Assembly: GCA_964414265.1 (NCBI GenBank)
Contig: CAYPVT010000001.1
Location: 1 to 50,641, forward strand
Direction of reading: 5' to 3'
Length of the DNA: 50,641 bases
Origin: an uncultured Candidatus Saccharibacteria bacterium
Lineage (GTDB): Bacteria > Patescibacteriota > Minisyncoccia > Phycocordibacterales > VMEP01
Shown here in pieces: positions 23,394-41,830 of this stretch. The notes under the pieces were generated by a model that did no database searches, had not been told where the DNA came from, and saw nothing but the letters and a program-made list of their open reading frames with translations. Positions within the stretch are counted from its first letter, which is position 1. Each line of letters begins with the position of its first letter. Both the position numbers and the translations under genes were made by a program.

Positions 23394-23479
23394 CATTGGC
23401 TCAACTAATAAAAATGTGTTAAGTTTTCTCATATCGGCGGTGAAATAAAAAATGGGCGTGCAATGTTTATACAATATAT

Positions 23480-23566
23480 GGAGACGTGGCTGAGTGGTCG
23501 AAAGCACCTCACTGCTAACGAGGCGTCCCTTAATCGGGACCGTGGGTTCGAATCCCACCGTCTCCG
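23480..23566 (+). tRNA. tRNA-Ser(GCU)
   Basis: GGAGACG...CTGCTAA anticodon loop, long variable arm CGTCCCTTAATCGGGACCG, T arm GTGGGTTCGAATCCCAC, acceptor CGTCTCC-G. No encoded CCA. Confidence 0.92.
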
Positions 23567-23616
23567 TAAAATAAGGAACAAAATGTGAAGCATTTTGTGA
23601 CTATATTTTTCGTAAA

Positions 23617-23737
23617 GACGGTGGGGTTCGAAAGGCGGAGCGGGCACCTGTTCAGCAGAACAGGTCGCGAGCCGTGGTCAAGAAATTTTACGAGCGACGG
23701 TGAGTAAAATATTCGTGACCGAATCCCACCGTCTCCG
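23617..23737 (+). repeat. 3H structured element, tRNA-Ser-linked copy a
   Basis: GACGGTGGGGTTCGAA-A-GGC-GGA-[hairpin with CAGCAG loop]-GA-GCC-GTG-[GGTCA...TGACC hairpin]-GAATCCCACCGTCTCCG. The flanks are the complement and a copy of the tRNA-Ser 3' end. Confidence 0.8.
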
Positions 23738-24026
23738 TTTTGAAGCTCCGTGAAAAACGGAGACGAGCGAGCAAACTGCCCGCCCGGATAAATCCGTTCG
23801 GACGGGCTTTGCTCGCGTGTGGGATTCGAAAGCCGGAGCATGTCGCAAAGCGACAGCGAGGCGGGCTTAATTGCGATAAGTGAAGCAATTGAGAGACGGA
23901 GGCTGGCGAGCCGAGTCGGGGTCGCACAAAAATTCAGCAGAATTTTATGTGTGACCGCGGAAATTTCAGCAGAAAATTATCTGTGACCGAAACCACCGTC
24001 TCCGTTTTGAAGCTCCATTGACTTTT
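23738..24026 (+). repeat. Composite 3H array (two cores plus an extra CAGCAG hairpin), tRNA-Ser-linked copy b
   Basis: Anti-3'-end hairpin CGTCTCCGTTTT...AAAACGGAGACG, a stem AGCGAGCAAACTG[28-nt GC hairpin]CTTTGCTCGCGTG, cores at 23831-23865 and 23895-23956, a hairpin at 23957-23988, then GAAACCACCGTCTCCGTTTTGAAGCTCC. Confidence 0.75.
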
Positions 24027-27585: not shown

Positions 27586-27665
27586 TATTATAAGCACCTG
27601 TGCTCCCCGCCCGAACGACTGATGTCGTCCAGTCGGGCGGGTAACCAACTGAGCTAAGGGTGGAC
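27586..27665 (-). pseudogene. Duplicated tRNA-Ile 5' half split by a 36-nt GC-rich hairpin
   Basis: Sense read CCACCCTTAGCTCAGTTGGTTA-[CCCGCCCG...CGGGCGGG, 27606-27641]-GAGCACAGGTGCTTATAA. It matches the tRNA-Ile 5' half up to the anticodon loop and has no 3' half. Confidence 0.75.
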
Positions 27666-28848: not shown

Positions 28849-28938
28849 AAAATACCCCCAAAGAACATTGCGGAGCACGACGGTGCGAGCATAGTAAATT
28901 TTTAGCAAAAAATTATACGTGTTCTTTGGGGGTATTTT
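28849..28938 (+). repeat. 3H structured element, stand-alone copy inside a perfect 18-bp stem
   Basis: AAAATACCCCCAAAGAAC-AT-TGC-GGA-[GCAC GACG GTGC]-GA-GCA-[TAGTAAATTTTT AGC AAAAAATTATA]-CGT-GTTCTTTGGGGGTATTTT. Lies between convergent genes. Confidence 0.8.
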
Positions 28939-30941: not shown

Positions 30942-31033
30942 GCATACACCCCTAAAATACACGCGTAAAATTCTGCTGAATTTTCGCTCTGCTCGATTCG
31001 TCAATCTGCGCAAGGTATTTTAGGGGTGTATGC
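30942..31033 (-). repeat. 3H structured element, stand-alone copy inside a perfect 19-bp stem
   Basis: Sense read GCATACACCCCTAAAATAC-CT-TGC-GCA-[GATT GACG AATC]-GA-GCA-[hairpin with CAGCAG loop]-GTATTTTAGGGGTGTATGC. Confidence 0.78.
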
Positions 31034-31039
31034 GGGAAG

Positions 31040-31175
31040 TAAAATACCCAGAAACGCACACAAAACTTCCCGTCTGCCGACAAGCAGGTCAGCCTCCGTC
31101 TCTCAATTACTTCGTTTATCGCAATTAAGCGTCGCGCTGTGCAAGGTCTTTCAAGCGTACCTCGTGGATTTTAGA
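31040..31175 (-). repeat. Degenerate 3H-related array
   Basis: Sense read contains GCTTGAAAGACCTTGCACAGC, the recurrent module CTTAATTGCGATAAACGAAGTAATTGAGAGACGGAGGC (also at 23866 and 33470) and a hairpin CTGCTTGTCGGCAG. Confidence 0.5.
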
Positions 31176-31221
31176 CCCAAAAACTAATTTTCTTTACTTT
31201 GATTTTTCTTAAAAATCTAGA

Positions 31222-31359
31222 CTTTTCCATTAAAAAACATTACCTGCCCGCGTGTACCTGTCTGCGTGTACGCACAGGCAGACGCGCAGGCGGGCGGAGC
31301 GCGACGGCGCGAGTATAGAAAAATTCAGCAGAATTTTATCGTGTTTTTTAATGGAAAAG
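31222..31359 (+). repeat. 3H structured element, stand-alone copy inside a perfect 18-bp stem, with a GC-rich insertion
   Basis: CTTTTCCATTAAAAAACA...[GC-rich palindrome 31245-31298]...GGC-GGA-[GCGC GACG GCGC]-GA-GT-[ATAGAAAAATT CAGCAG AATTTTAT]-CG-TGTTTTTTAATGGAAAAG. Confidence 0.75.
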
Positions 31360-31839: not shown

Positions 31840-32109
31840 ATGCCCTATTTTGTTTATATTCTACTCAGTTTAAAAGACGAGAAACTATATGTAGGATGTA
31901 CAGAAAATCTTGAACGTAGAATCAAAGACCACAATCAAGGCAAAGTTATCGCAACTGTAAAACGCCGACCACTTGAAATTATTTATTCTGAAAAATTAGA
32001 CGATAAAAGTGAAGCGTTCAACAGAGAGAGGTTCCTAAAAAGTCTGTGGTCGGTTAGATTCAAACAAAAGATTTTAAAGAAATATAAACAAAATAGGGTG
32101 TGCCATTAA
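31840..32109 (+). CDS. Small GIY-YIG (URI-domain) nuclease family protein
   Basis: 89 aa. YFVYILLSLKDEKLYVGCTENLERRIKDHN matches the GIY...YVG...R...H/N pattern. Wedged between smpB and ssrA. Confidence 0.8.
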   Translation: MPYFVYILLSLKDEKLYVGCTENLERRIKDHNQGKVIATVKRRPLEIIYSEKLDDKSEAFNRERFLKSLWSVRFKQKILKKYKQNRVCH

Positions 32110-32572: not shown

Positions 32573-32583
32573 TTAAAAACATT
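32565..32583 (+). repeat. attL-like 19-bp direct repeat (ssrA 3' end)
   Basis: CTCCACCATTAAAAACATT is repeated exactly at 37904-37922. Confidence 0.85.
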
Positions 32584-32612
32584 AGCGTCCCCAAGGGGCG
32601 CTTTTGTTTTTT
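32584..32612 (+). terminator. Rho-independent terminator after ssrA
   Basis: AGCGTCCCC-AA-GGGGCGCT stem followed by TTTGTTTTTT. Confidence 0.75.
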
Positions 32613-32839
32613 GGTGGAGATGAGCGAGCAAACTGCTTTGCTCGCGTGGGGGAGTTGAAAGTCGGAGCATGTCGCTTGCGACAGCGAGACGGGGTCGAGA
32701 GTACTTAGTGCTCGCAAATTGCAAAGCAATTGAGAACACTTAGTAACTCGTGACCGACGAACCCTGGGGTTTCGAAAGACGGAGGCTGACGAGCCGAGTC
32801 GGGGTCGCGGAAATTTTCAGCAGAAAATTATCTGTGACC
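32612..32839 (+). repeat. Two 3H cores downstream of ssrA (tmRNA-linked copies)
   Basis: TGGTGGAGATG (complement of the tmRNA 3' end), stem AGCGAGCAAACTGCTTTGCTCGCGTG, core 1 at 32660-32755 (GTC-GGA...GA-GAC-GGGG...GTGACC), core 2 at 32778-32839 (GAC-GGA-[GGCT GACG AGCC]-GA-GTC-GGGG...GTGACC). Confidence 0.8.
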
Positions 32840-32903
32840 AACCACCCTTATCGAATTAATTAGCGAAAACTTTTTCAACCAACAAACCTGCTTTTATTTT
32901 TCT

Positions 32904-33263
32904 TTAAAAAGACTTAGTGAAATCCTTCCCTGTTTTACTATCTGTGTAAATAATCACACAATTATCATTCAGAACTGTATCCACGTAGATAATTGGGGTA
33001 TAACGCCACTCTGATACGTTACCCCATTTCTCGTCCTCTGTTTTATAAATATTCAAACAATCTATTTTTCTCTTGGCTATATAGTCTGTGTTTTGTTTCT
33101 CTGTCTCTGCTTGTAATTCTTTAAACTGTTGCTTCTCGATAGATTTTTGTTTACTTATTTGACTAGCATAATAAAAACCACCTAAAATAATACTTGCTAT
33201 TAAAACTGTAGCTGGTAGCGATAAATTATTCAGTTTTTTTATGTTGTTAATTACCCCCTTCAT
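32904..33263 (-). CDS. Small membrane-anchored protein (island paralog 1)
   Basis: Start set at MKGVINNIKKLNNLSLP. The longer ORF runs into 3H repeat DNA. One TM helix. N-terminal 45 aa are homologous to the 34371-34799 product. Confidence 0.65.
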   Translation of the reverse strand: MKGVINNIKKLNNLSLPATVLIASIILGGFYYASQISKQKSIEKQQFKELQAETEKQNTDYIAKRKIDCLNIYKTEDEKWGNVSEWRYTPIIYVDTVLNDNCVIIYTDSKTGKDFTKSF

Positions 33264-33346
33264 ATCCCCCAATCCTACCCCCACCCCGCAAAAATACAAC
33301 CCCCAATCCAAGGGATGCCCTTGGATTTTATTTCTGCATGTCTTGC

Positions 33347-33631
33347 GTGGGGTTTCGAAAAGCGGAGCCATATTTTGTCAGCAGACAAAATGGCGAGCTG
33401 GGGCTGCGACCGAGCCTTGCGACGGCAAAGCGAGAGTTGTAGCCGACACCCCCTATCTTTTCGTGGGGCTTGATTGCGAATACTTGGAGCAATCAAGAGA
33501 CGGAGGGAGTGAAGACGACTGAGTCGTGCCCACAGGGCTTTTCAGCAGAAAAGAACCTGTGGGTTGAAAACCGGAGCGCGACGGCGCGAGGCGGGGTCGC
33601 GCAAAAATTTAGCAAAATTTTATGCGTGACC
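33347..33631 (+). repeat. Composite 3H array inside the island
   Basis: GTGGGGTTTCGAAA-AGC-GGA-[CCATATTTTGT CAGCAG ACAAAATGG]-GA-GCT-GGGG..., then module GCTTGATTGCGAATACTTGGAGCAATCAAGAGACGGAGG, then a second core ACC-GGA-[GCGC GACG GCGC]-GA-GGC-GGGG...GTGACC-AAATCCCCC. Confidence 0.75.
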
Positions 33632-33712
33632 AAATCCCCCAATCCAAGGACATCTCTTGGCTTGGACATGGCAAGGCATAGTTTCGTAGCACAAGTATCC
33701 TAACTATATGAA

Positions 33713-34339
33713 TTATTGATTTTTATATACTACTCGAAATAAATAAACATTATAGAAAAACATGAAATATTCTAAACTACCATTTTTGAATCTTTTGAAG
33801 TATTTAAATTCCTCCTCTCCTGGATTGCCTATTGAGATAAAGCTATTGTCTATTTTCCAAGAATTTGTGTTCTGTTTGTATAAAAAATCTTTTGTATCTA
33901 ATCTTAAATCACGAGACTCAATAACTTTATTATATTCGCTGAAATACAAACCTCTTACAATCTTATCCATAACACGCAACAATCTATCTTTATCTATATT
34001 AGTTCTATAGTTTCCATCTAATAATTCAGTATCATTTACAATTTTTTTAAGTAGATTGTATCTTTCCGGCTGAGTAAGGGACCTAAGACCTCTTTTCTGC
34101 CAGATACGTTCTGCTGTTATATTCCAATTACTTGTGCCCCGTACAAGAGAAATTACATATTGTTCGTCAAACGTGTAATCTGAGTTACATTGGACATGAG
34201 TATTTAGCTTAATTATACCGGGTGGATTCTTTGTCATGAAAAATCCTTTTTGCGGGACATGATCTTCATCAGTTTTTTCAGAGCTTAGTAATTTTTTCCC
34301 ACATAAATAACAAATCTCTCCTTTCTTAAATCTTGTCAT
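33713..34339 (-). CDS. HNH-like nuclease-domain protein with an uncharacterised C-terminal domain
   Basis: 208 aa. The N-terminus CYLCGKK...DEDHVPQK...HVQCN resembles an HNH/zinc-finger core. The remaining 150 aa have no recognised motif. Confidence 0.55.
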   Translation of the reverse strand: MTRFKKGEICYLCGKKLLSSEKTDEDHVPQKGFFMTKNPPGIIKLNTHVQCNSDYTFDEQYVISLVRGTSNWNITAERIWQKRGLRSLTQPERYNLLKKIVNDTELLDGNYRTNIDKDRLLRVMDKIVRGLYFSEYNKVIESRDLRLDTKDFLYKQNTNSWKIDNSFISIGNPGEEEFKYFKRFKNGSLEYFMFFYNVYLFRVVYKNQ

Positions 34340-34370
34340 CTCCTGTTATTTGCCTGTTACTACTTAAAAC

Positions 34371-34799
34371 TTAATTTTTAAGGCAAGTAATATATTTAGA
34401 ATTGTAATTGCTATCATAGTCTGCGGGATGCTTAGGTTCATAACTCATCTCTAGATACGCTATAGACGTTGCTGTGTCCCCTGCCTTTTGTGCCTTTTCG
34501 GAGGCTAATAAATAAGCTCTCTTTGCAATTTTATCAGCATAATCTTTTGCTTCAGTTTTACATAATTCAATTTTTATAGCTGAATTTACCGGTATTGGTT
34601 TTGTTTGGTTTATCTCTGTCTTGGCTTGTATAGCTTCTACTTTTGCTTCTAATTCTATTTGTTGTTGTTTCTCAATAGACCTTTGTTTATTTATTTGGAT
34701 TGCATACAAAAACCCTCCCAAAATAAAACATCCTATTAGAATTGCGACGGGTAGTGATAATTTGTTAAGTTTTTTTATGCTGTTAATTACCTTCTCCAT
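34371..34799 (-). CDS. Small membrane-anchored protein (island paralog 2)
   Basis: MEKVINSIKKLNKLSLPVAILIGCFILGGFLYAIQ...SIEKQQ. Shares its leader and N-terminus with the 32904-33263 product, but the C-terminus differs. Confidence 0.65.
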   Translation of the reverse strand: MEKVINSIKKLNKLSLPVAILIGCFILGGFLYAIQINKQRSIEKQQQIELEAKVEAIQAKTEINQTKPIPVNSAIKIELCKTEAKDYADKIAKRAYLLASEKAQKAGDTATSIAYLEMSYEPKHPADYDSNYNSKYITCLKN

Positions 34800-34919
34800 A
34801 TCCCCCAATCCTACCCCTCCCTAAAATATTTTGCAATTACAAAATATTCGGGCTAGCCCGGGTGTCACCCGAACGCCCTAGGGCGAACATCTCTTTAGTA
34901 GAGATGTTTTAGCCCCACA

Positions 34920-35302
34920 AAAACACAAGCTCCCTTAAAATTACCCAAACACCAAAACCTTATCTGAACTCTCAACCATTTTGAGTAAATCTGGCATCGT
35001 GGAAACTTGGTGCACGCCATTTTCCATACCACGTAATTTAAGACAGGAACCGCACGCATATATTTCTCCCTTTATTTCCTTAAATTCAGTTATTTTTGCC
35101 GAGATATCAAAATCTTTAGTGTCTGAAATAATATCTAACTCCGAACCCTCGCTCATCAAAAAAACTTCCACTTGATGACCTGCTTTTAGCGAAGTAATTC
35201 CGAAACGAAACGTATTCCAAACATGTTCTGGCTTATTTGACTGTAAAATGATTCCAAATTTCATAAATTTTATTGTACTAGGTTTCTTAATGTAACTCCA
35301 CC
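34920..35302. repeat. 383-bp perfect direct repeat, copy 1
   Basis: Identical by eye to 37528-37910 (offset 2608 bp). Contains the whole DsrE-like ORF plus both flanks. Confidence 0.9.
34941..35264 (-). CDS. DsrE/DsrF-like family protein
   Basis: 107 aa. MKFGIIL...VEVFLMSEG...IYACGSCLKLRG resembles the DsrE/YchN fold with a conserved Cys loop. Confidence 0.6.
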   Translation of the reverse strand: MKFGIILQSNKPEHVWNTFRFGITSLKAGHQVEVFLMSEGSELDIISDTKDFDISAKITEFKEIKGEIYACGSCLKLRGMENGVHQVSTMPDLLKMVESSDKVLVFG

Positions 35303-35326
35303 GCTAAAAACACAAGCACTTGAACA

Positions 35327-35749
35327 TTATAAACAGCTAACACCGAATTCAGTAAAAACGTGCTCTTTCCACCATAGAGTTTCTTGCTTAGCAGACCTGT
35401 CAACATGATCTTTGCAATAAACTAACAGAACCCTAACTTCCAATTTTTTGTTACAAACTCCAAGAATACACCTATTCCCACTAGTTTTTGGTGACACATT
35501 AGTTTTCGCAACCTTAAAATCATATTTTACAAGCAACATATCTCTGTTCGAATTACATATAAAATCAAGAACACTCGTGCCACTTAAGTTTGCTATACGC
35601 TCCAAATAATCTTGTATAGATTGTCTAGTTACATCCCAATTAACTTTGTGTTTCTTCTCAAAATCTTTTATGTAGTGTTTCTCTGCATACTCCTCAAAAA
35701 CAACTACATATTTCTGGTTAATAAAGTGTTGCTTCATCTTGCTGAACAA
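35327..35749 (-). CDS. Putative toxin partner of the Panacea-domain antitoxin
   Basis: 140-aa ORF overlapping the end of the upstream DUF4065-like gene by 32 nt. No catalytic motif recognised. Confidence 0.5.
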   Translation of the reverse strand: MFSKMKQHFINQKYVVVFEEYAEKHYIKDFEKKHKVNWDVTRQSIQDYLERIANLSGTSVLDFICNSNRDMLLVKYDFKVAKTNVSPKTSGNRCILGVCNKKLEVRVLLVYCKDHVDRSAKQETLWWKEHVFTEFGVSCL

Positions 35750-36218
35750 TCAAACTATAAGGAATTACGTCGTTTTCAAATGAAACCTTCCATGGGAACT
35801 GTTCATGTGTAAATTTAACTATATCTTCAGTCTTCTTATTCTTCCATTTAGTACAGATATCTTGAACCAATTCAAGCTCGTCTTTTTTTAGAACAGGGTC
35901 CTTGATATTCTCTGTTAAATAAAACAATTCTGCTTTATTGCTTTTTTCAAGTTGAACTTGATTAGTACCAACAAGGTCAATCAATTGATCAAAAAAATCA
36001 ATTGAAACAGGACCTCTTTCAAGTTTCTTATAGGTTACACCAGTAATAGGAGCAAAGTTGTGATAAAAATATACAAAATCAGACAAATAAACCAGCTTTG
36101 CTAGTTTAGTTTTAGTGATTTTCCCATCCCTATCTGCACCATGCAATATACAGGCCTTTATTAATTCACCCAACCTCTCTTGTGGAGTCAGACCTCTTTG
36201 GATCTGTAGTTTACTCAT
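35718..36218 (-). CDS. Panacea-domain (DUF4065, SocA/GepA-like) putative antitoxin
   Basis: 166 aa. ITKTKLAKLVYLSDFVYFYHNFAPITGVTYKKLERGPV matches my recollection of the DUF4065 N-terminal signature (KL.KLlYl.D...). Confidence 0.6.
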   Translation of the reverse strand: MSKLQIQRGLTPQERLGELIKACILHGADRDGKITKTKLAKLVYLSDFVYFYHNFAPITGVTYKKLERGPVSIDFFDQLIDLVGTNQVQLEKSNKAELFYLTENIKDPVLKKDELELVQDICTKWKNKKTEDIVKFTHEQFPWKVSFENDVIPYSLIVQQDEATLY

Positions 36219-36310
36219 TGATTCAATACTATCAAATTAACCGCAACGTGCAACACTTTCAATATGTGAATTCCCCCACCCCACAAAAACACAAGCTTCA
36301 TCGTCAAAAA

Positions 36311-37441
36311 TCAAATCTTATTAAGAATAGCCCTAAGTTTGTCATTTGAATAAACCCGTTGCTTCATTTGGATCCCCTTATCGTTAATAATTTTTTTTTC
36401 TGCAAGTTTTTCCAAATATCTAACGCACGTAGGTCTAGGTATATGAGTCATTCTGCTTAAAATCGGAGCTGTAATATAAGGACGAGAAAATGTGGCTTCT
36501 AAGGCCCTAATCAAACCGAGACCAGCAGTTTCCGTCTCAATCATAGCCCTACTTTTCTTAAACAGTTCATCAATTTTTATTGAAAGATTAAGTGATATTT
36601 TTGCTTGTTCTTCAAGGCCCTTAAGAAAAAATAATAACCAAGCGCGCCAATTTTGTTTTTTATCCACTTTTGAAAGTACGCTCATATATAACCTTTTATG
36701 TCTCTCAAAATAACCACTTGGATAAAGTATCGGCATTTCTAATAAACCTTTCTTTATCAAAAAAAGAGTTATCAATAGACGTCCAACTCTTCCATTCCCA
36801 TCTTCAAATGGGTGTATTGCTTCAAAATGATGATGTATGACGCCTGCAACAATAAGTGGATTAGTGCTACTGGGACTAAGAATAAATTTTTCTAACTCTT
36901 CCATTAACTGTGCTACATGTATTGGTTCTGGGGGAACATATCTCGCTTTTCCCTTACCTGTTCCACTTTGACCAATCCATACGGGTTTTTTTCTAAATTC
37001 ACCAGGATTTTTATTCTTTCCGCGTGTTCCAGTCATTAGGGTTTTGTGGATACTTCTAATAAGGAAATTATTTAAATTATATTTTTTAAGTATTTCAATT
37101 CCCTCAAGCATTGCTTTCTCATAATTGTATATTTCAAATGCTTCGTGCCTTTCTTCGTCTGTTTGGCCAATAACACCTATCTTAAAGACATCGTCGATAG
37201 ATGCCTGAGTTCCTTCTAGCTGAGAACTTGACTCTGCTTCTTTACTAAGAATCGGACGCATTAAAAGCGCAGCGTTTGTGAGAAGTCTCGGAATCTGTTT
37301 CAGGCTCCCAATTGCCCCCTGAGTTTCAGCCAATTGATTTGCCAACTCTTCATCATAAATACTAGACAAATCTGGAGGAAATTTTTGAGCTAGTATTTTA
37401 TTCATTAGCTCATATATAGCAAAAAATGAGCTAGTGGTCAA
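36311..37441 (-). CDS. Fic-family protein (AMPylase-type) with an internal inhibitory motif
   Basis: Fic motif HPFEDGNGRVGRLL. Upstream SSQLEG fits the (S/T)xxxE(G/N) inhibitory helix. C-terminal winged-helix-like tail. Confidence 0.88.
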   Translation of the reverse strand: MTTSSFFAIYELMNKILAQKFPPDLSSIYDEELANQLAETQGAIGSLKQIPRLLTNAALLMRPILSKEAESSSQLEGTQASIDDVFKIGVIGQTDEERHEAFEIYNYEKAMLEGIEILKKYNLNNFLIRSIHKTLMTGTRGKNKNPGEFRKKPVWIGQSGTGKGKARYVPPEPIHVAQLMEELEKFILSPSSTNPLIVAGVIHHHFEAIHPFEDGNGRVGRLLITLFLIKKGLLEMPILYPSGYFERHKRLYMSVLSKVDKKQNWRAWLLFFLKGLEEQAKISLNLSIKIDELFKKSRAMIETETAGLGLIRALEATFSRPYITAPILSRMTHIPRPTCVRYLEKLAEKKIINDKGIQMKQRVYSNDKLRAILNKI

Positions 37442-37527
37442 GCCATCAGTCCATCAGTGAGCAGGTCGTGTGCTGATTACTACACTGCAACAAAAAACCT
37501 GGCCCGAAGGCTATGTCTAAATCCTGT

Positions 37528-37910
37528 AAAACACAAGCTCCCTTAAAATTACCCAAACACCAAAACCTTATCTGAACTCTCAACCATTTTGAGTAAATCT
37601 GGCATCGTGGAAACTTGGTGCACGCCATTTTCCATACCACGTAATTTAAGACAGGAACCGCACGCATATATTTCTCCCTTTATTTCCTTAAATTCAGTTA
37701 TTTTTGCCGAGATATCAAAATCTTTAGTGTCTGAAATAATATCTAACTCCGAACCCTCGCTCATCAAAAAAACTTCCACTTGATGACCTGCTTTTAGCGA
37801 AGTAATTCCGAAACGAAACGTATTCCAAACATGTTCTGGCTTATTTGACTGTAAAATGATTCCAAATTTCATAAATTTTATTGTACTAGGTTTCTTAATG
37901 TAACTCCACC
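37528..37910. repeat. 383-bp perfect direct repeat, copy 2
   Basis: Identical to 34920-35302. Ends at the attR-like ssrA repeat. Confidence 0.9.
37549..37872 (-). CDS. DsrE/DsrF-like family protein (identical second copy)
   Basis: Protein sequence identical to the 34941-35264 product. Confidence 0.6.
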   Translation of the reverse strand: MKFGIILQSNKPEHVWNTFRFGITSLKAGHQVEVFLMSEGSELDIISDTKDFDISAKITEFKEIKGEIYACGSCLKLRGMENGVHQVSTMPDLLKMVESSDKVLVFG

Positions 37911-37922
37911 ATTAAAAACATT
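37904..37922 (+). repeat. attR-like 19-bp direct repeat of the ssrA 3' end
   Basis: CTCCACCATTAAAAACATT is identical to 32565-32583. Confidence 0.85.
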
Positions 37923-38007
37923 GGCTTTCCCCAAAAAAAACCACCCAAACACCACTTTCCCCTCCCTCCTTGTGTATTTACCCTAAAGTAGGCTAGACTA
38001 TATAACT

Positions 38008-38166
38008 ATGGATGAAAAAATAATTGGGTATTGTGTGAAGTGTAAGGAAAAGCGTGAGATGAAGGATGTTCAGCAGACTGAAATAAAGCCTGGACGCCCT
38101 GCAGCAAAAGGTACATGTACAGTGTGTGGAACTGGAATGTACAAAATCCTTCCTTCAAAGAAGTAG
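38008..38166 (+). CDS. Small zinc-ribbon protein (DUF5679-like)
   Basis: 52-aa ORF absent from the track (under 60 aa): MDEKIIGYCVKCKEKREMKDVQQTEIKPGRPAAKGTCTVCGTGMYKILPSKK. Has CxxC...CxxC and is followed by a terminator. Confidence 0.65.
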   Translation: MDEKIIGYCVKCKEKREMKDVQQTEIKPGRPAAKGTCTVCGTGMYKILPSKK

Positions 38167-38183
38167 TTTTAATTAATAGAAAC

Positions 38184-38220
38184 AAAAACAGCCCGACGAA
38201 AGTTTGGGCTGTTTTTGTTT
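38184..38220 (+). terminator. Rho-independent terminator
   Basis: AAAAACAGCCC-GACGAAAGTT-TGGGCTGTTTTTGTTT. Confidence 0.75.
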
Positions 38221-38249
38221 GGTTTGGTATAGTGTTTCATAAATTTAAA

Positions 38250-38323
38250 GGGCTCATAGTATAGCGGTAATACGCGTCCATGGCATGGACGAGTTCGGGG
38301 TCCGACTCCCCGTGAGTCCACCA
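38250..38323 (+). tRNA. tRNA-Ala(GGC), CCA encoded
   Basis: GGGCTCA/TA/GTATAGCGGTAATAC/G/CGTCC-ATGGCAT-GGACG/AGTTC/GGGGTCCGACTCCCC/GTGAGTCC-A-CCA. The G3:U70 identity pair is present. Confidence 0.9.
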
Positions 38324-38413
38324 AAGCTAAAAATCTCCCCTGCGGGAGATTTTTAGCTTTGGTGGAAGGCGGAGCCATATTTCGTCAGCAGACGAAATGG
38401 CGAGCCAGGGTCG
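38324..38413 (+). repeat. tRNA-Ala trailer: 22-bp hairpin sequestering the CCA end, plus a truncated 3H core
   Basis: CCACCAAAGCTAAAAATCTCCC-CTGC-GGGAGATTTTTAGCTTTGGTGG (starts inside the tRNA at 38318), then AA-GGC-GGA-[CCATATTTCGT CAGCAG ACGAAATGG]-GA-GCC-AGGGTCG. There is no P3/GTGACC. Confidence 0.7.
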
Positions 38414-38455: not shown

Positions 38456-38527
38456 TTTAAAAACATTGCGCAGTACGACGGCACGAGCATAGCAAAAACT
38501 TAGTAAAGTTTTATGCGCGTTTTTAAA
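38456..38527 (+). repeat. 3H structured element, stand-alone copy with a 9-bp outer stem
   Basis: TTTAAAAAC-AT-TGC-GCA-[GTAC GACG GCAC]-GA-GCA-[TAGCAAAAACTT AGT AAAGTTTTATGC]-GC-GTTTTTAAA. Confidence 0.65.
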
Positions 38528-40414: not shown

Positions 40415-41830
40415 TCAGAAATCAAGTTCGACTGATTCGCCGGCCTGTGGGGCCATCGCGTTGAGTCCTAAATAATCGCGCAACCTTTGAACAAAAAACA
40501 TTGTTGTTTTTGGTTCTCCATGAACTACGAAAACTTTTTTAAGAGTATCAGCAGTGCCCTTAACAAACTTAAATAAATGATCGCCATCTTTGTGCGCAGA
40601 ATAACCCGAAATACTAACAACCTTCGCCTTAACCTCTACTTCTGTGGCGTTTATTCTAACTCTTTTTGCCCCTTCTTGAAGCATTCTCCCGGGTGTACCA
40701 ACGGCCTGATAACCAATGAGCATCAAGGTGCTTCTAGGGTCTCCGAGATAATTTTGCTCATGATGCACTATTCTCCCCCCGTTTGACATACCGGAGCCTG
40801 CAATAATTATTTTTGGATTTGGATAATCAATAATTTTTTTAGACTCCTCTGTGGTGGGGGTAAGTTTTAATCCTGGGAAATTAAAAATATCATCTCCTCC
40901 GTGAATAATCCCTAACGCTTCTTTATTGAAAAAATCCTGATTATTTCGATAAATTTTTGTCACATTTATCGCAAGTGGTGAATCCAAAAATATTGAAACT
41001 GGGGGGATTCTTTTATTTTCAACAAGATTATTTATTTCAAGCAAAAGATCTTGTGTTCGTTCTATTGAAAATGCTGGAATCATAAGAACGCCACCTTTGC
41101 TGATTGTGTCTTCAATAACCTGCTCTGTTTTTTTCTTTCGTTCATCCACGCTTTCATGGTTGCGGTCACCATAAACGCTTTCAATAACCATGTAATCAGC
41201 ATCTGTCACTTTTTCTGTATCACGAAGCAGTGGCGCTGGAGAATTTCCCAAGTCACCAGTAAAAAGAATTTTCTTTCCGTTGTATGTAATTTCAACCATT
41301 GCTGAGCCTAAAATATGTCCGGCATCCCTAAATACAACGGAAATATTTTCCCCAACTTTTACAGGTTCGTGATAATTAACCGTTTTCCACAACTTAACAG
41401 CACGAAGAACATCTTCTTCGCGGTAAATAACTGGGTGATTATCTCGTTTCGCTTCTTTTCCTAAAACACCGAGACTATCCATCAAAGATAATTCTCCTAT
41501 TTCCTTCGTTGGTATTGTTGAATAAATTTCCCCACGAAAACCATCCTTAATAAGCTTTGGAATGCGCCCAATGTGGTCAATGTGAGCATGGGTCACAAAA
41601 ACAACATCAATTTCAGCCGCATTATACAAAAGTGGGTCTAGATTTCTAAGGTCACCAATTTTACTGCCTTGATATAAGCCACAATCAATCAAGATTTTTT
41701 TGCCCTCTCCTTCAATAAGAAAATTGGAGCCAGTGACTTCACCAGCTCCGCCAAAAAATGAAAGTTTTAATTTTTTTGAGATTGCCATTCGTTCAAATAA
41801 GGATGCTCTATCGTTTCTGTATTCTAACAT
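40415..41830 (-). CDS. MBL-fold beta-CASP RNA-metabolising hydrolase
   Basis: Metallo-beta-lactamase motif VTHAHIDHIGR. Downstream D/H motifs (DAGHILGS, SAHKD, VHGE) are arranged as in the beta-CASP family. Confidence 0.85.
   Translation of the reverse strand: MLEYRNDRASLFERMAISKKLKLSFFGGAGEVTGSNFLIEGEGKKILIDCGLYQGSKIGDLRNLDPLLYNAAEIDVVFVTHAHIDHIGRIPKLIKDGFRGEIYSTIPTKEIGELSLMDSLGVLGKEAKRDNHPVIYREEDVLRAVKLWKTVNYHEPVKVGENISVVFRDAGHILGSAMVEITYNGKKILFTGDLGNSPAPLLRDTEKVTDADYMVIESVYGDRNHESVDERKKKTEQVIEDTISKGGVLMIPAFSIERTQDLLLEINNLVENKRIPPVSIFLDSPLAINVTKIYRNNQDFFNKEALGIIHGGDDIFNFPGLKLTPTTEESKKIIDYPNPKIIIAGSGMSNGGRIVHHEQNYLGDPRSTLMLIGYQAVGTPGRMLQEGAKRVRINATEVEVKAKVVSISGYSAHKDGDHLFKFVKGTADTLKKVFVVHGEPKTTMFFVQRLRDYLGLNAMAPQAGESVELDF

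What the first reader, a model, noticed from the sequence alone, without database searches (positions are those of the whole stretch)
23567..24026. Conserved, covarying three-helix element (3H) nested in hairpins that mimic the T-arm/acceptor end of adjacent tRNA and tmRNA genes; at least 15 copies in this window
Read in the sense of the neighbouring stable RNA, every copy has the same plan: P1(5') - (G)AA(A) - P2 (3-4 nt) - GGA - hairpin P2a (starts GC, ends GC) - GA - P2' - GGG - hairpin P3 (base GGTC...GACC, AT-rich stem, loop CAGCAG or AGC) - P1(3').

Compensatory changes are abundant:
- P2/P2' is GCC/GGC (Thr, Met and Ser-b copies), GGC/GCC (Ser-a, Ala), GTC/GAC and GAC/GTC (the two tmRNA copies and Ser-b2), AGC/GCT (33361), GCCC/GGGC (Asp units) and TGC/GCA (28869).
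- P2a is either a 4-bp stem with a GACG loop (GCGC/GCGC, GCAC/GTGC, GGCT/AGCC, GATT/AATC) or a 10-12 bp stem with a CAGCAG loop. CCATATTTTGT/ACAAAATGG at 33369 compares with CCATATTTCGT/ACGAAATGG at 38376, a T:A to C:G double change.
- The P3 base GGTC/GACC becomes GGCT/AGCC in the Asp units.

In the tRNA-linked copies the 3' strand of P1 is a copy of the tRNA from the T-loop to the 3' end (for example GAATCCCACCGTCTCCG). The 5' strand is its complement (GACGGTGGGGTTCGAA). The core therefore sits in the T-loop of an acceptor/T-arm minihelix mimic.

Conserved single-stranded GGA/GA and loop sequences combined with freely covarying stems point to a functional RNA or ssDNA fold rather than a plain sequence repeat. 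I do not recognise the motif as a known ribozyme, riboswitch, IS end or Rfam family. As inference, it could be a mobile element that homes into hairpin loops or T-arms, a self-processing tRNA trailer module, or a protein-binding decoy of tRNA 3' ends.
Basis: seen in the sequence. Interest (0 to 1): 0.88.

Follow-up and report, generated by a model that had tools for sequence, protein, structure and literature searches.

The report
Miniature structured cassettes at tRNA gene ends
A previously undescribed family of about 100-200 bp, protein-less DNA cassettes found across the ultra-small Patescibacteria (CPR) inserts into the 3' ends of tRNA and tmRNA genes, and each carries a conserved 62-nt two-hairpin fold that no RNA database recognises.

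Summary
At least 16 copies lie in the window, 13 with E<0.001. Nineteen sequences that the search pattern did not constrain show compensatory changes in 20 of 23 base pairs. All but three contigs are labelled Patescibacteria or simply 'bacterium'.

Rfam 15 has no match and I found no paper describing it.

New findings:
- The conserved unit is exactly 62 nt: one purine, then P2 through GTGAC.
- Junction geometry is identical in 32 of 34 informative loci. The left flank is the reverse complement of the target from position p. The right flank is the target from p+2. The target consensus is RG|NN|CR, usually GG|TT|CRA of the T-loop.
- Wobble bias (G.U 71, A.C 6) shows that only the sense strand of the core is under structural selection. 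The outer stem P1 shows no such bias (21:17).
- A filled-versus-empty comparison shows the insert brings its own copy of the gene's 3' end plus a terminator-like hairpin, displacing the original 3' end.
- At the finding's own tRNA-Ser locus, the two units are in swapped order in a close relative.

No recombinase, reverse transcriptase or other protein travels with it.

Best reading: a new kind of miniature integrative cassette with a folded attachment site. The enzyme, and whether the fold acts as RNA or single-stranded DNA, are unknown.

The parts
23479..23567 (+). tRNA-Ser(GCT). This is the target gene. Its last 18 nt (23549-23566) are repeated downstream.
   Evidence: ARAGORN; Rfam; repeat located
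23567..23616 (+). Spacer S1 of cassette Ser-a, containing a small hairpin.
   Evidence: It stays with core a in the relative L217, in truncated form
23617..23632 (+). A' of Ser-a: the inverted copy of tRNA-Ser positions T54 to 69. It forms the 5' strand of P1.
   Evidence: Strain L002 has the perfect complement, with G23626 replaced by A
23633..23719 (+). Core of Ser-a: one purine, P2 (GGC), GGA, long P2a with a CAGCAG loop, GA, P2' (GCC), and a long P3 ending in GTGAC.
   Evidence: (22.4 bits, E=5.6e-4)
23720..23737 (+). A copy: a direct repeat of tRNA-Ser C56 to the 3' end. It forms the 3' strand of P1.
   Evidence: identical to 23549-23566
23738..23830 (+). Left part of cassette Ser-b. It comprises a spacer starting with 12 nt of the native flank, then A' for the acceptor strand (23758-23765), then hairpin E with a nested GC-rich hairpin (23766-23816), then A' for the T-arm (23817-23830).
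   Evidence: the same order is seen in L217 and L220
23831..23987 (+). Core of Ser-b, interrupted in P3. It holds the 5' part (23831-23865), the nested unit b2 (own hairpin 23866-23893 and core 23894-23955), and the P3 remainder (23956-23987).
   Evidence: b2 72.4 bits; Ser-b 16.2 bits; P3 remnant 15.2 bits
23988..24022 (+). Diverged A copy (23988-24004), followed by the native downstream flank of tRNA-Ser (24005-24022).
   Evidence: the flank is homologous to L217 4063-4179
5049..5138 (-). Unit after tRNA-Thr(GGT): A' 5130-5138, canonical 62-nt core 5068-5129, A copy 5049-5067.
   Evidence: (84.4 bits)
5330..5703 (-). Two identical 187-nt tandem units after tRNA-Asp, with P2 GCCC/GGGC and P3 base GGCT/AGCC.
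   Evidence: The ENA contig L212 holds only one unit
6235..6317 (-). Core after tRNA-Met. Its 3' P1 strand has degenerated.
   Evidence: (32.3 bits)
32573..32838 (+). Array after the tmRNA gene. It comprises a terminator-like spacer (32573-32612), cassette a (A' 32613-32622, hairpin E 32623-32645, A' 32646-32659, core 32660-32754) and cassette b (A' 32765-32776, core 32777-32838).
   Evidence: Cassette b is absent in strain L126
33348..33630 (+). Three further units linked to tmRNA-like 3'-end copies: 33348-33444, 33498-33563 and 33569-33630.
   Evidence: 17.1, 41.5 and 85.5 bits
38367..38519 (+). Units after tRNA-Ala: the 5' part of a core (38367-38413) and a short-subfamily copy (38463-38519).
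28849..28938 (+). Short-subfamily copy inside a 19-bp hairpin between convergent genes.
   Evidence: (43.2 bits)
30947..31359 (.). ftsH-smpB spacer. It holds short-subfamily copies at 30947-31028 (-) and 31222-31359 (+), and a fragment at 31069-31129 (-).
   Evidence: The orthologous spacer in L127 carries different internal insertions

Best explanation
**What it is.** These are miniature, non-coding integrative cassettes specific to Patescibacteria. A cassette consists of:
- a copy of the target gene's 3' end (A);
- a spacer (S), often a terminator-like hairpin;
- a short inverted copy of the target (A', 5-21 nt);
- a conserved 62-nt core made of two hairpins (P2/P2a and P3).

**Where it inserts.** It inserts on the top strand at RG NN|CR. 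This is usually between T55 and C56 of the T-loop of a tRNA or tmRNA gene, or two nucleotides before the terminal CAC of a tRNA. The gene is rebuilt from the cassette's A. The original 3' end is pushed downstream, directly after the core.

**Inferred mechanism.**
- In single-stranded form, A' pairs with A across the core to give a three-way junction. This junction is the attachment site.
- P1 reproduces the target duplex. The two extra nucleotides of A' can pair with the two target nucleotides left of the joining point.
- A' therefore acts as a splint that lines up the target's left end with the cassette's A for strand exchange.
- The invariant features of the core would be what a trans-acting enzyme recognises. 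These are the GGA/GA internal loop, the GACG loop, the G.U pair, the bulged A and the AGCA loop, the last three at fixed distances.
- Repeated integration and excision at A sites would produce the tandem arrays and the shuffling seen between relatives.

**Shown:** the fold, the junction geometry, replacement of the 3' end, shuffling of cassettes, and the absence of a linked protein.

**Inferred:** the single-stranded or circular intermediate, the splint role of A', the existence of a trans-acting enzyme, and whether the folding strand is DNA or RNA.
For: - **Fold.** Searches show covariation in all three helices. One search gives G.U 71 against A.C 6 in the core, so only the sense strand folds.
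- **Exact boundaries.** In 32 of 34 loci the insert is one purine plus P2...GTGAC. The inverted flank starts at target position p and the direct flank at p+2.
- **Target consensus.** Position -1 is G in 31/32, +2 is C in 29/32 and +3 is R in 30/32. Twenty sites are T-loop sites and 12 are other sites.
- **Direct repeat.** At least 20 loci have an 18-nt direct repeat starting exactly 18 nt from the tRNA 3' end, at offset 0 after the core.
- **Filled versus empty site.** In L131 the sequence after the distal A copy is homologous to the native tmRNA 3' end plus flank of L183, L203 and L188, which have no element. The proximal 3' end in L131 is followed by an unrelated terminator-like hairpin.
- **Cassette behaviour at the finding's own locus.** The order is tRNA-a-b-flank in the window and tRNA-b-a-flank in L217 (ComF 91% identical). 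In L220, core a (97% identical) sits behind the left part of the other cassette.
- **Strain differences.** Cassette tmRNA-b is absent in L126. The number of Asp units differs between assemblies.
- **Orientation.** 66 hits have a tRNA or tmRNA within 300 nt on the same strand and 3 on the opposite strand.
- **Patchy presence.** Ten of 80 SmpB loci hold a hit.
- **No linked protein.** No family recurs in more than 9 of 116 loci, and those that recur are housekeeping genes. The proteins scanned in the window include no recombinase, transposase or reverse transcriptase.
- **P1 is unbiased.** G.U 21 against A.C 17, as expected for an inverted repeat made at the DNA level.
Against: - No enzyme is identified.
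- No circular or excised form, and no empty site within one population, was seen. Near-identical strains (L001-L007, L224) are colinear.
- How a cassette acquires an A' and an A that match a new tRNA is unexplained. The cassettes of different tRNAs in one genome have unrelated spacers.
- Short-subfamily copies sit in long hairpins with no upstream A copy, which the model does not predict.
- Cassette Ser-b starts with 12 nt of the native flank, so its origin was not a simple T-loop crossover.
- Core conservation across very distant lineages, and copies inside an rRNA operon spacer (L056), would also fit a functional RNA.
Confidence: 0.55

Rival explanations
1. It is a functional structured non-coding RNA. 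The unit A'-core-A is transcribed by read-through from the tRNA, tmRNA or rRNA promoter. P1 is an acceptor/T-arm minihelix, so RNase P, RNase Z and the CCA-adding enzyme cut out a stable RNA of about 100-130 nt. Its 62-nt core binds a protein or another RNA. The DNA-level features would be only the way the gene spreads.
For: - The core folds on the sense strand only.
- It is co-oriented with tRNAs, 66 to 3.
- L056 lies between the 16S rRNA and tRNA-Ile, inside the operon transcript.
- Hairpin E sits exactly at the acceptor/T-stem boundary, as the other arms do in a tRNA.
- Loop and bulge nucleotides are invariant across very distant lineages.
- Most window copies are in sense to the nearest gene.
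Against: - P1 has no wobble bias.
- The mimic replaces G3.U70 of tmRNA with a Watson-Crick pair, so identity elements are not kept.
- Roughly half of the spacers look like intrinsic terminators placed before the element.
- Presence is patchy, and copy number and order vary between close relatives.
- Many A copies are truncated.
Confidence: 0.2
2. It is an RNA-guided system. The core is a scaffold and A' is a 5' guide, sometimes split by hairpin E. The guide pairs with the top strand of the tRNA gene, or with the tRNA itself, and directs a recombinase or nuclease encoded elsewhere. This resembles IS110 bridge RNAs or IscB omega RNAs.
For: - The layout of a variable, target-complementary segment next to a conserved scaffold.
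- A guide-like length of 5-21 nt.
- A conserved G(G) just outside the paired region, like an adjacent motif.
Against: - No IS110, IscB, TnpB or Cas gene lies in the window or recurs near the 116 loci.
- Known scaffolds are longer, and Rfam models give no hit.
- A' decays without wobble bias.
Confidence: 0.1
3. It is a self-catalytic, intron-like element. A' works like an internal guide sequence that pairs with the last 2 nt of the 5' 'exon' and the first nucleotides of the 3' 'exon'. The core would be a small ribozyme or deoxyribozyme that carries out cleavage and ligation itself.
For: - The 2-nt plus k-nt splint geometry across the joining point.
- The exact 62-nt boundaries.
- No protein partner nearby.
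- Highly conserved unpaired nucleotides.
Against: - No match to any ribozyme or intron model in Rfam.
- A 62-nt two-hairpin unit with no detected pseudoknot is small for such chemistry.
- The gene is already intact without splicing.
- The catalysis is purely inferred.
Confidence: 0.07
4. It is a passive palindromic repeat of the REP/BIME or organelle hairpin type. It would spread by replication slippage, template switching and unequal crossing-over near tRNA terminators, with no dedicated joining mechanism.
For: - Mosaic, nested architecture with several hairpin modules.
- Tandem duplications at Asp and in L063.
- An unbiased P1.
Against: - Identical junction geometry in 32 of 34 loci across two target classes.
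- A length-invariant core, with 95 of 100 cores having the same P3 length.
- Strong strand-specific covariation.
Confidence: 0.05

Closest known systems
Integron gene cassettes and their attC sites
   Same: - Small promoter-less units form same-orientation arrays next to one primary site.
- Each unit ends in an imperfect palindrome whose structure, not sequence, is conserved.
- Only one strand folds.
- Unpaired bases sit at fixed positions.
- After insertion, the distal part of the palindrome comes from the target.
- Cassette order is reshuffled between relatives.
   Different: - There is no IntI integrase, attI or Pc.
- There is no GTTRRRY/RYYYAAC boxes.
- The outer stem is a copy of the target gene's 3' end, not a family consensus.
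- A conserved 62-nt two-hairpin core sits in the loop.
- The primary site is a tRNA or tmRNA T-loop.
- Most cassettes carry no gene.
Genomic islands and prophages that integrate into tRNA or tmRNA genes (T-loop sublocation), and their non-autonomous derivatives (CIMEs)
   Same: - A direct repeat runs from the T-loop to the 3' end of the gene.
- The element supplies a replacement 3' end.
- Orientation is fixed relative to the gene.
- Tandem accretion occurs at one site.
   Different: - The size is about 100-200 bp.
- No integrase is found anywhere nearby.
- An inverted copy of the target plus a covarying structured core lies at the distal end.
- The junctions show a 2-nt offset rather than a 7-nt overlap.
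Folded single-stranded attP of CTX-phi and other Xer-exploiting elements (IMEX)
   Same: - A hairpin formed by one strand imitates the duplex target site.
- Host-encoded enzymes would do the work.
- The element needs no recombinase of its own.
   Different: - The target is not dif.
- No dif-like arms are present.
- The elements are not phages: viral contigs gave only a chance hit.
Mobile double-hairpin elements and GC-rich palindromes of fungal mitochondria (Allomyces DHEs; Neurospora PstI palindromes flanking tRNA genes). Recalled from the literature, not tested here.
   Same: - They are short, non-coding two-hairpin units with conserved structure.
- They are dispersed, often next to tRNA genes.
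- They are nested and polymorphic between strains.
   Different: - The hosts are different.
- No sequence relation is known.
- No target-derived stem or exact junction rule has been reported for them.
MITEs and REP/BIME repeats
   Same: They are small, non-coding, multi-copy, hairpin-forming and intergenic.
   Different: - The terminal inverted repeats are not conserved between copies, because they are target-derived.
- The direct repeats are 18-25 nt long and are the gene's own 3' end.
- The interior shows RNA-like covariation across distant CPR lineages.

Membership tests
Any Rfam 15 family (including hammerhead, twister, twister-sister, hatchet, pistol, HDV-like, group I/II introns, tRNA-like and Y-RNA-like families) | Covariance-model match at or near the family's gathering score | tested here: not met
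   on the window, and on 18 other loci. Nothing over the elements has E<1. The best is a bZIP/Hac1 intron hit at 18.4 bits against a 41-bit gathering score, E=1.1.
Integron cassette / attC | R''/R' boxes (RYYYAAC...GTTRRRY) at the base of the palindrome | tested here: not met
   The stems differ from copy to copy and equal the neighbouring tRNA 3' end. No shared GTTRRRY is present.
Integron cassette / attC | IntI tyrosine recombinase with attI next to the array | tested here: not met
   None of the window proteins scanned against Pfam is a recombinase. No recurrent family near 116 loci.
Integron cassette / attC | Same-orientation cassette arrays that are reshuffled between relatives; single-strand-specific fold | tested here: met
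   Arrays at the Ser, tmRNA and Asp loci. Order is swapped in L217. G.U 71 against A.C 6 in the core.
tRNA/tmRNA-integrating island | Direct repeat from the T-loop or anticodon loop to the gene's 3' end, with the element-borne copy restoring the gene | tested here: met
   (18-nt repeats in at least 20 loci). (L131 filled; L183, L203 and L188 empty).
tRNA/tmRNA-integrating island | Integrase gene inside the element | tested here: not met
   The elements are 100-200 bp with no ORF. No integrase is nearby.
MITE | Terminal inverted repeats conserved among copies and related to a parent IS; short fixed-length target duplication | tested here: not met
   The inverted repeats are target-specific, 5-21 nt long. 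The direct repeats are 4-25 nt. No parent IS was found.
IS110 bridge RNA / IS200-605 omega RNA | Encoded next to the cognate recombinase or TnpB/IscB gene at an IS end | tested here: not met
   No such gene among the window proteins scanned or among the recurrent families at the loci.
Kink-turn motif (for the P2-GGA/GA-P2a loop) | Three-nucleotide bulge followed by tandem sheared G.A pairs | tested here: not met
   The alignment shows a 3x2 loop (GGA over GA), that is, tandem GA with a 1-nt bulge. The 3D fold was not tested.
Self-cleaving or self-splicing ribozyme | Catalytic activity | not testable with these tools
   This needs in vitro transcription and cleavage/ligation assays.

The most novel reading that the evidence does not exclude
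The element is a new class of mobile genetic element that moves without any element-encoded protein. It uses a nucleic-acid three-way junction in which a target-complementary arm splints the target and a conserved 62-nt fold either catalyses strand exchange itself or programmes a conserved host enzyme. This would be a minimal 'self-addressing' integrating cassette that targets the universally conserved T-loop of tRNA genes throughout the Patescibacteria.
Probability: 0.25. Interest if true: 0.95.

Novelty: new variant of a known kind. Interest (0 to 1): 0.85.

Why it matters
- **Scale in small genomes.** Patescibacteria have tiny genomes that are thought to be poor in mobile DNA. Here, one structured element occurs at least 16 times in 50 kb. 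These come from Saccharibacteria, Paceibacterota groups, Levyibacteriota and Minisyncoccia.
- **A defined new motif.** It gives a well-defined structured nucleic-acid motif with strong covariation: 62 nt, two hairpins and invariant loop and bulge positions. This is suitable for Rfam, for structure determination and for activity tests.
- **A testable mechanism.** The exact junction rule and the target-complementary arm point to a joining mechanism that may need no element-encoded protein. That would be of interest for mobile-element biology and for programmable DNA insertion.
- **Practical effects on annotation and assembly.** The elements break metagenome assemblies at tRNA loci: several contigs end there. 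They also create partial tRNA copies that confuse annotation.

Tried and rejected
- **Known RNA family.** Rfam was searched at gathering and permissive thresholds on the window, on the 471-nt finding alone and on 18 other loci. There was no family.
- **Phage origin.** A scan of viral contigs gave one hit, inside a GC-rich coding region with no P3. This is chance. The two Microbacterium hits in the genome scan are likewise chance.
- **Linked protein.** All-against-all clustering of 1491 ORFs around 116 loci found only housekeeping families, in at most 9 loci each. Pfam scans of 20 window proteins found no recombinase, transposase or reverse transcriptase.
- **TIGR-Tas arrays.** These were considered after a literature hit. 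I rejected them: there are no box C/D motifs and no Tas/Nop gene.
- **Reverse splicing into the T-loop, or a tRNA-derived (SINE-like) origin of the 5' strand of P1.** I rejected both. For non-palindromic T-loops the left flank is the complement of the loop, not a copy of it.
- **Serine-recombinase crossover as the source of the 2-nt offset.** The offset fits, but the central dinucleotide is not repeated between the core and the right flank. The simple model therefore fails. A GIY-YIG-type cut with a 2-nt 3' overhang also fits the geometry, and two GIY-YIG ORFs sit beside tRNA and tmRNA genes in the window. This remains only a lead.
- **First wobble count in P1.** My first count was biased by its own scoring. 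I redid it with equal penalties.
- **Clean nested insertion in the ftsH-smpB spacer.** Comparison with L127 shows different rearrangements, not a clean insertion.
- **Near-identical strains as a source of empty sites.** L001-L007, L207-L216 and L224 gave no empty sites, apart from the Asp unit count.
- **Literature.** Eight searches found no description of the element.
Full report
**1.

tRNA-Ser(GCT) ends at 23566/7. Downstream lie two units.

- **Ser-a:** spacer 23567-23616, inverted arm A' 23617-23632, core 23633-23719, direct copy A 23720-23737.
- **Ser-b:** 23738-24004. Its A' is split by a hairpin, and a further unit (b2, core 23894-23955) is nested in its P3.

Single-sequence folding gives the three helices. 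For Ser-a the sense strand folds at -65.2 kcal/mol (z = -8.7) and the antisense strand at -50.4 kcal/mol.

**2. It is a large, conserved family, not a local repeat**

All but three contigs are labelled Patescibacteria or simply 'bacterium'. The named groups are Saccharibacteria, several Paceibacterota groups (Nomura-, Kaiser-, Yonath-, Zambryski-, Taylor-, Vogel- and Tagabacteria), Levyibacteriota and Minisyncoccia. The three exceptions are:

- two Microbacterium hits, which are chance matches in coding DNA;
- one contig in an Ignavibacteria-labelled bin (L097).

Ninety-seven distinct cores align without a single gap. On that alignment:

| Measure | Result |
|---|---|
| Cells paired | 97.2% |
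| Paired in shuffles | 82% |
| Paired when partners are slid | 30-50% |
| Double-change cells | 326 |

The scan fixed the sequence of P2a, so I repeated the count on 19 cores found by the covariance model with other P2a sequences. Twenty of 23 pairs carry compensatory changes, including all four pairs of P2a.

Invariant or near-invariant unpaired features are:

- the GGA over GA internal loop;
- the GACG loop;
- GG before P3;
- a G.U pair at the fifth position of P3 (95 of 97);
- a bulged A;
- an A-N-Y-A tetraloop closed by a covarying C-G or U-A pair.

The model R1, built without any window sequence, finds 13 window copies at E<0.001 and 18 at E<0.05.

**3. It is not a known RNA**

Rfam 15 gives nothing over the elements. 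I searched the whole window at gathering score and at E up to 10, the 471-nt finding alone with the laxest filters, and 18 other loci. Eight full-text literature searches found no description.

**4. Context**

Of 120 pattern hits, 50 have a tRNA or tmRNA gene at most 100 nt upstream on the same strand. Within 300 nt, 66 have one on the same strand and 3 on the opposite strand. No protein family recurs near the element: the most frequent clusters occur in 9 of 116 loci and are housekeeping genes. The window proteins scanned include no recombinase, transposase or reverse transcriptase. It does contain one HNH and two GIY-YIG endonuclease ORFs beside tRNA and tmRNA genes. Viral contigs gave only a chance hit.

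**5. Exact boundaries and a junction rule**

Where the upstream target copy can be identified, 32 of 34 loci show the same geometry.

- The non-target insert is one purine followed by P2...GTGAC. That is 62 nt in the canonical form.
- The left flank is the reverse complement of the target, starting at target position p.
- The right flank is the target itself, starting at p+2.

| Target position | Base | Count |
|---|---|---|
| -1 | G | 31/32 |
| +2 | C | 29/32 |
| +3 | purine | 30/32 |

Twenty sites are the T-loop (GG|TT|CRA, so the join is between T55 and C56). Twelve lie two nucleotides before the terminal CAC of a tRNA. The inverted arm is 5-21 nt long. The direct repeat reaches 18-25 nt. 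In at least 20 loci it is a perfect copy running from the T-loop to the 3' end of the adjacent gene.

**6. Which strand is under selection**

| Region | G.U | A.C | Test |
|---|---|---|---|
| Core helices, excluding the invariant G.U pair | 71 | 6 | p = 3e-15 |
| Outer stem P1 | 21 | 17 | p = 0.63 |

The core is therefore selected to fold as the sense strand, either as RNA or as single-stranded DNA. P1 behaves like an inverted repeat that was created at the DNA level and then drifts.

**7. Filled versus empty site**

In the metagenome locus L131 the order is:

- the tmRNA gene;
- a terminator-like hairpin;
- A' for the acceptor strand;
- hairpin E;
- A' for the T-arm;
- the core;
- an 18-nt copy of the tmRNA 3' end.

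The DNA after this distal copy is homologous to the native tmRNA 3' end plus downstream flank in L183, L203 and L188, which have no element (83.6%, 80.6% and 73.5% identity). The hairpin that follows the proximal 3' end has no counterpart there. The insert therefore brought its own copy of the gene's 3' end and a spacer. The original 3' end was displaced to the far side of the core. Islands that integrate into tRNA genes do the same, but this insert is under 200 bp and has no gene.

**8. Cassette behaviour at the finding's own locus**

I recovered the orthologous comF-tRNA-Ser region from relatives.

- **L217** (ComF 91% identical): the order is tRNA - unit b - unit a - extra DNA - native flank. 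The window has tRNA - a - b - flank. Each unit keeps its own spacer, inverted arm and core.
- **L220** (81% identical): a core 97% identical to the window's core a sits behind the left part of unit b. A diverged core occupies the first position.

Other differences point the same way:

- Strain L126 lacks cassette tmRNA-b and has different DNA downstream.
- L127 (SmpB 90% identical) has one cassette after tmRNA where the window has at least five. It also lacks the GIY-YIG ORF.
- The Asp unit count differs between assemblies.
- Ten of 80 SmpB loci from relatives hold a hit.

Near-identical strains are otherwise colinear, so I saw no turnover within one population.

**9. Interpretation**

The facts fit a miniature integrative cassette of the form [A - spacer - A' - core]. 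It joins at RG NN|CR, rebuilds the gene and accumulates in arrays.

The mechanism I infer is as follows. In single-stranded form, A' pairs with A across the core, so the element displays its own target as a duplex in a three-way junction. The two extra nucleotides of A' can pair with the two target nucleotides to the left of the joining point. A' thus bridges the junction like a splint. The conserved loops, the bulge and the G.U pair would be the handle for an enzyme encoded elsewhere. In the boldest reading they would be a catalytic fold.

The 2-nt offset is the geometry of enzymes that leave 2-nt 3' overhangs, namely serine recombinases and GIY-YIG endonucleases. That statement rests on established knowledge of those enzymes, not on a test made here. 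A simple serine-recombinase scheme does not reproduce the junctions, and the GIY-YIG ORFs in the window are only a lead.

Four points remain unexplained:

- how A and A' come to match each new tRNA;
- why short-subfamily copies sit in long hairpins with no upstream A;
- how cassette Ser-b came to begin with 12 nt of the native flank;
- whether the folding strand acts as RNA.

Arguments for RNA are sense co-orientation, a copy inside an rRNA operon spacer (L056), and the position of hairpin E at the acceptor/T-stem boundary. Arguments against obligatory RNA function are the unbiased P1, terminator-like spacers before about half of the elements, loss of the tmRNA G3.U70 pair in the mimic, and patchy presence.

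**10. Comparison with known systems**

In behaviour it is closest to integron cassettes with attC sites, to tRNA-integrating islands and their non-autonomous derivatives, and to the folded attP of CTX-type elements. It fails the defining tests of each: no R boxes, no IntI, no integrase, no dif-like arms (see the membership table). It is not a MITE, because the inverted repeats are not shared between copies. It matches no Rfam family.

I therefore file it as a new variant of a known kind, the site-specific integrative cassette. I put the chance at about one in four that it is a categorically new, protein-independent or host-programmed mobile element.

**11. Verdict**

Interest is high.

Noticed in passing
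window 5990-6050 (-), 27596-27665, 23778-23806; L127 1880-1935: A second loop-dwelling module is present: a GC-rich hairpin, CCCGCCCGAACGG...CCGTTCGGNACGGGCGGGG. It sits in the D-loop of partial 5' copies of tRNA-Asp and tRNA-Ile that lie just upstream of the intact genes. These copies end in the anticodon loop. It also sits inside hairpin E of unit Ser-b.
   Followed up: partly
window 4499-4954 (-), about 5752-5990 (-), 31840-32109 (+): One HNH and two GIY-YIG endonuclease ORFs lie directly beside tRNA-Thr, tRNA-Asp and tmRNA. The Asp-linked ORF is bracketed by a 24-nt direct repeat of the tRNA-Asp 5' end. The ORF between smpB and tmRNA is absent in the syntenic relative L127.
   Followed up: partly
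window 32850-38250: The region between tmRNA and tRNA-Ala looks like a variable island. It holds a duplicated DsrE-like gene (34941-35264 and 37549-37872), a SocA/Fic toxin-antitoxin pair and several ORFs with no family. Strain L126 has different content here.
   Followed up: partly
L008, L013, L037, L039, L045, L051, L072, L095, L104 (between the tRNA 3' end and A'): Another conserved, apparently structured module starts right after tRNA-Ser, -Trp, -Tyr and -Val in several genomes: AAYGA-YYNGCGARRA-hairpin-YGAG...CATCRWTG. There is no terminator between it and the tRNA. It has no Rfam match.
   Followed up: no
L056 880-1110, L113, L115, L070, L101, L116: These are 'class II' copies. The core is preceded by its own hairpin (GTGAG-hairpin-CAAG) instead of a target-derived arm. 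It sits inside a partial 5' copy of tRNA-Ile or tRNA-Ala just upstream of the intact gene in the 16S-23S spacer. The intact tRNA-Ile is itself bracketed by an inverted repeat of about 40 nt.
   Followed up: partly
L071 2363-2639: A tRNA gene next to a class II copy carries a group I intron (Rfam RF00028, 70.2 bits).
   Followed up: no
window 5330-5703 versus L212: The 187-nt Asp unit is present twice in the window but once in the ENA assembly of the same population. This is either real copy-number variation or repeat collapse. Several public contigs end inside these elements, so they break assemblies.
   Followed up: partly
window 23920-23988: Two adjacent hairpins with CAGCAG loops give a weak, non-significant Rfam hit to the Hac1/Xbp1 unconventional intron (18.4 bits, E=1.1). 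Covariation shows that the loop is a 4-nt A-N-Y-A closed by C-G or U-A, not the 7-nt IRE1 loop.
   Followed up: yes
window 40415-41830 (-): A beta-CASP/RMMBL metallo-beta-lactamase (RNase J or CPSF-like RNA nuclease) is encoded in the window. It might be relevant to RNA 3'-end processing in this organism.
   Followed up: no
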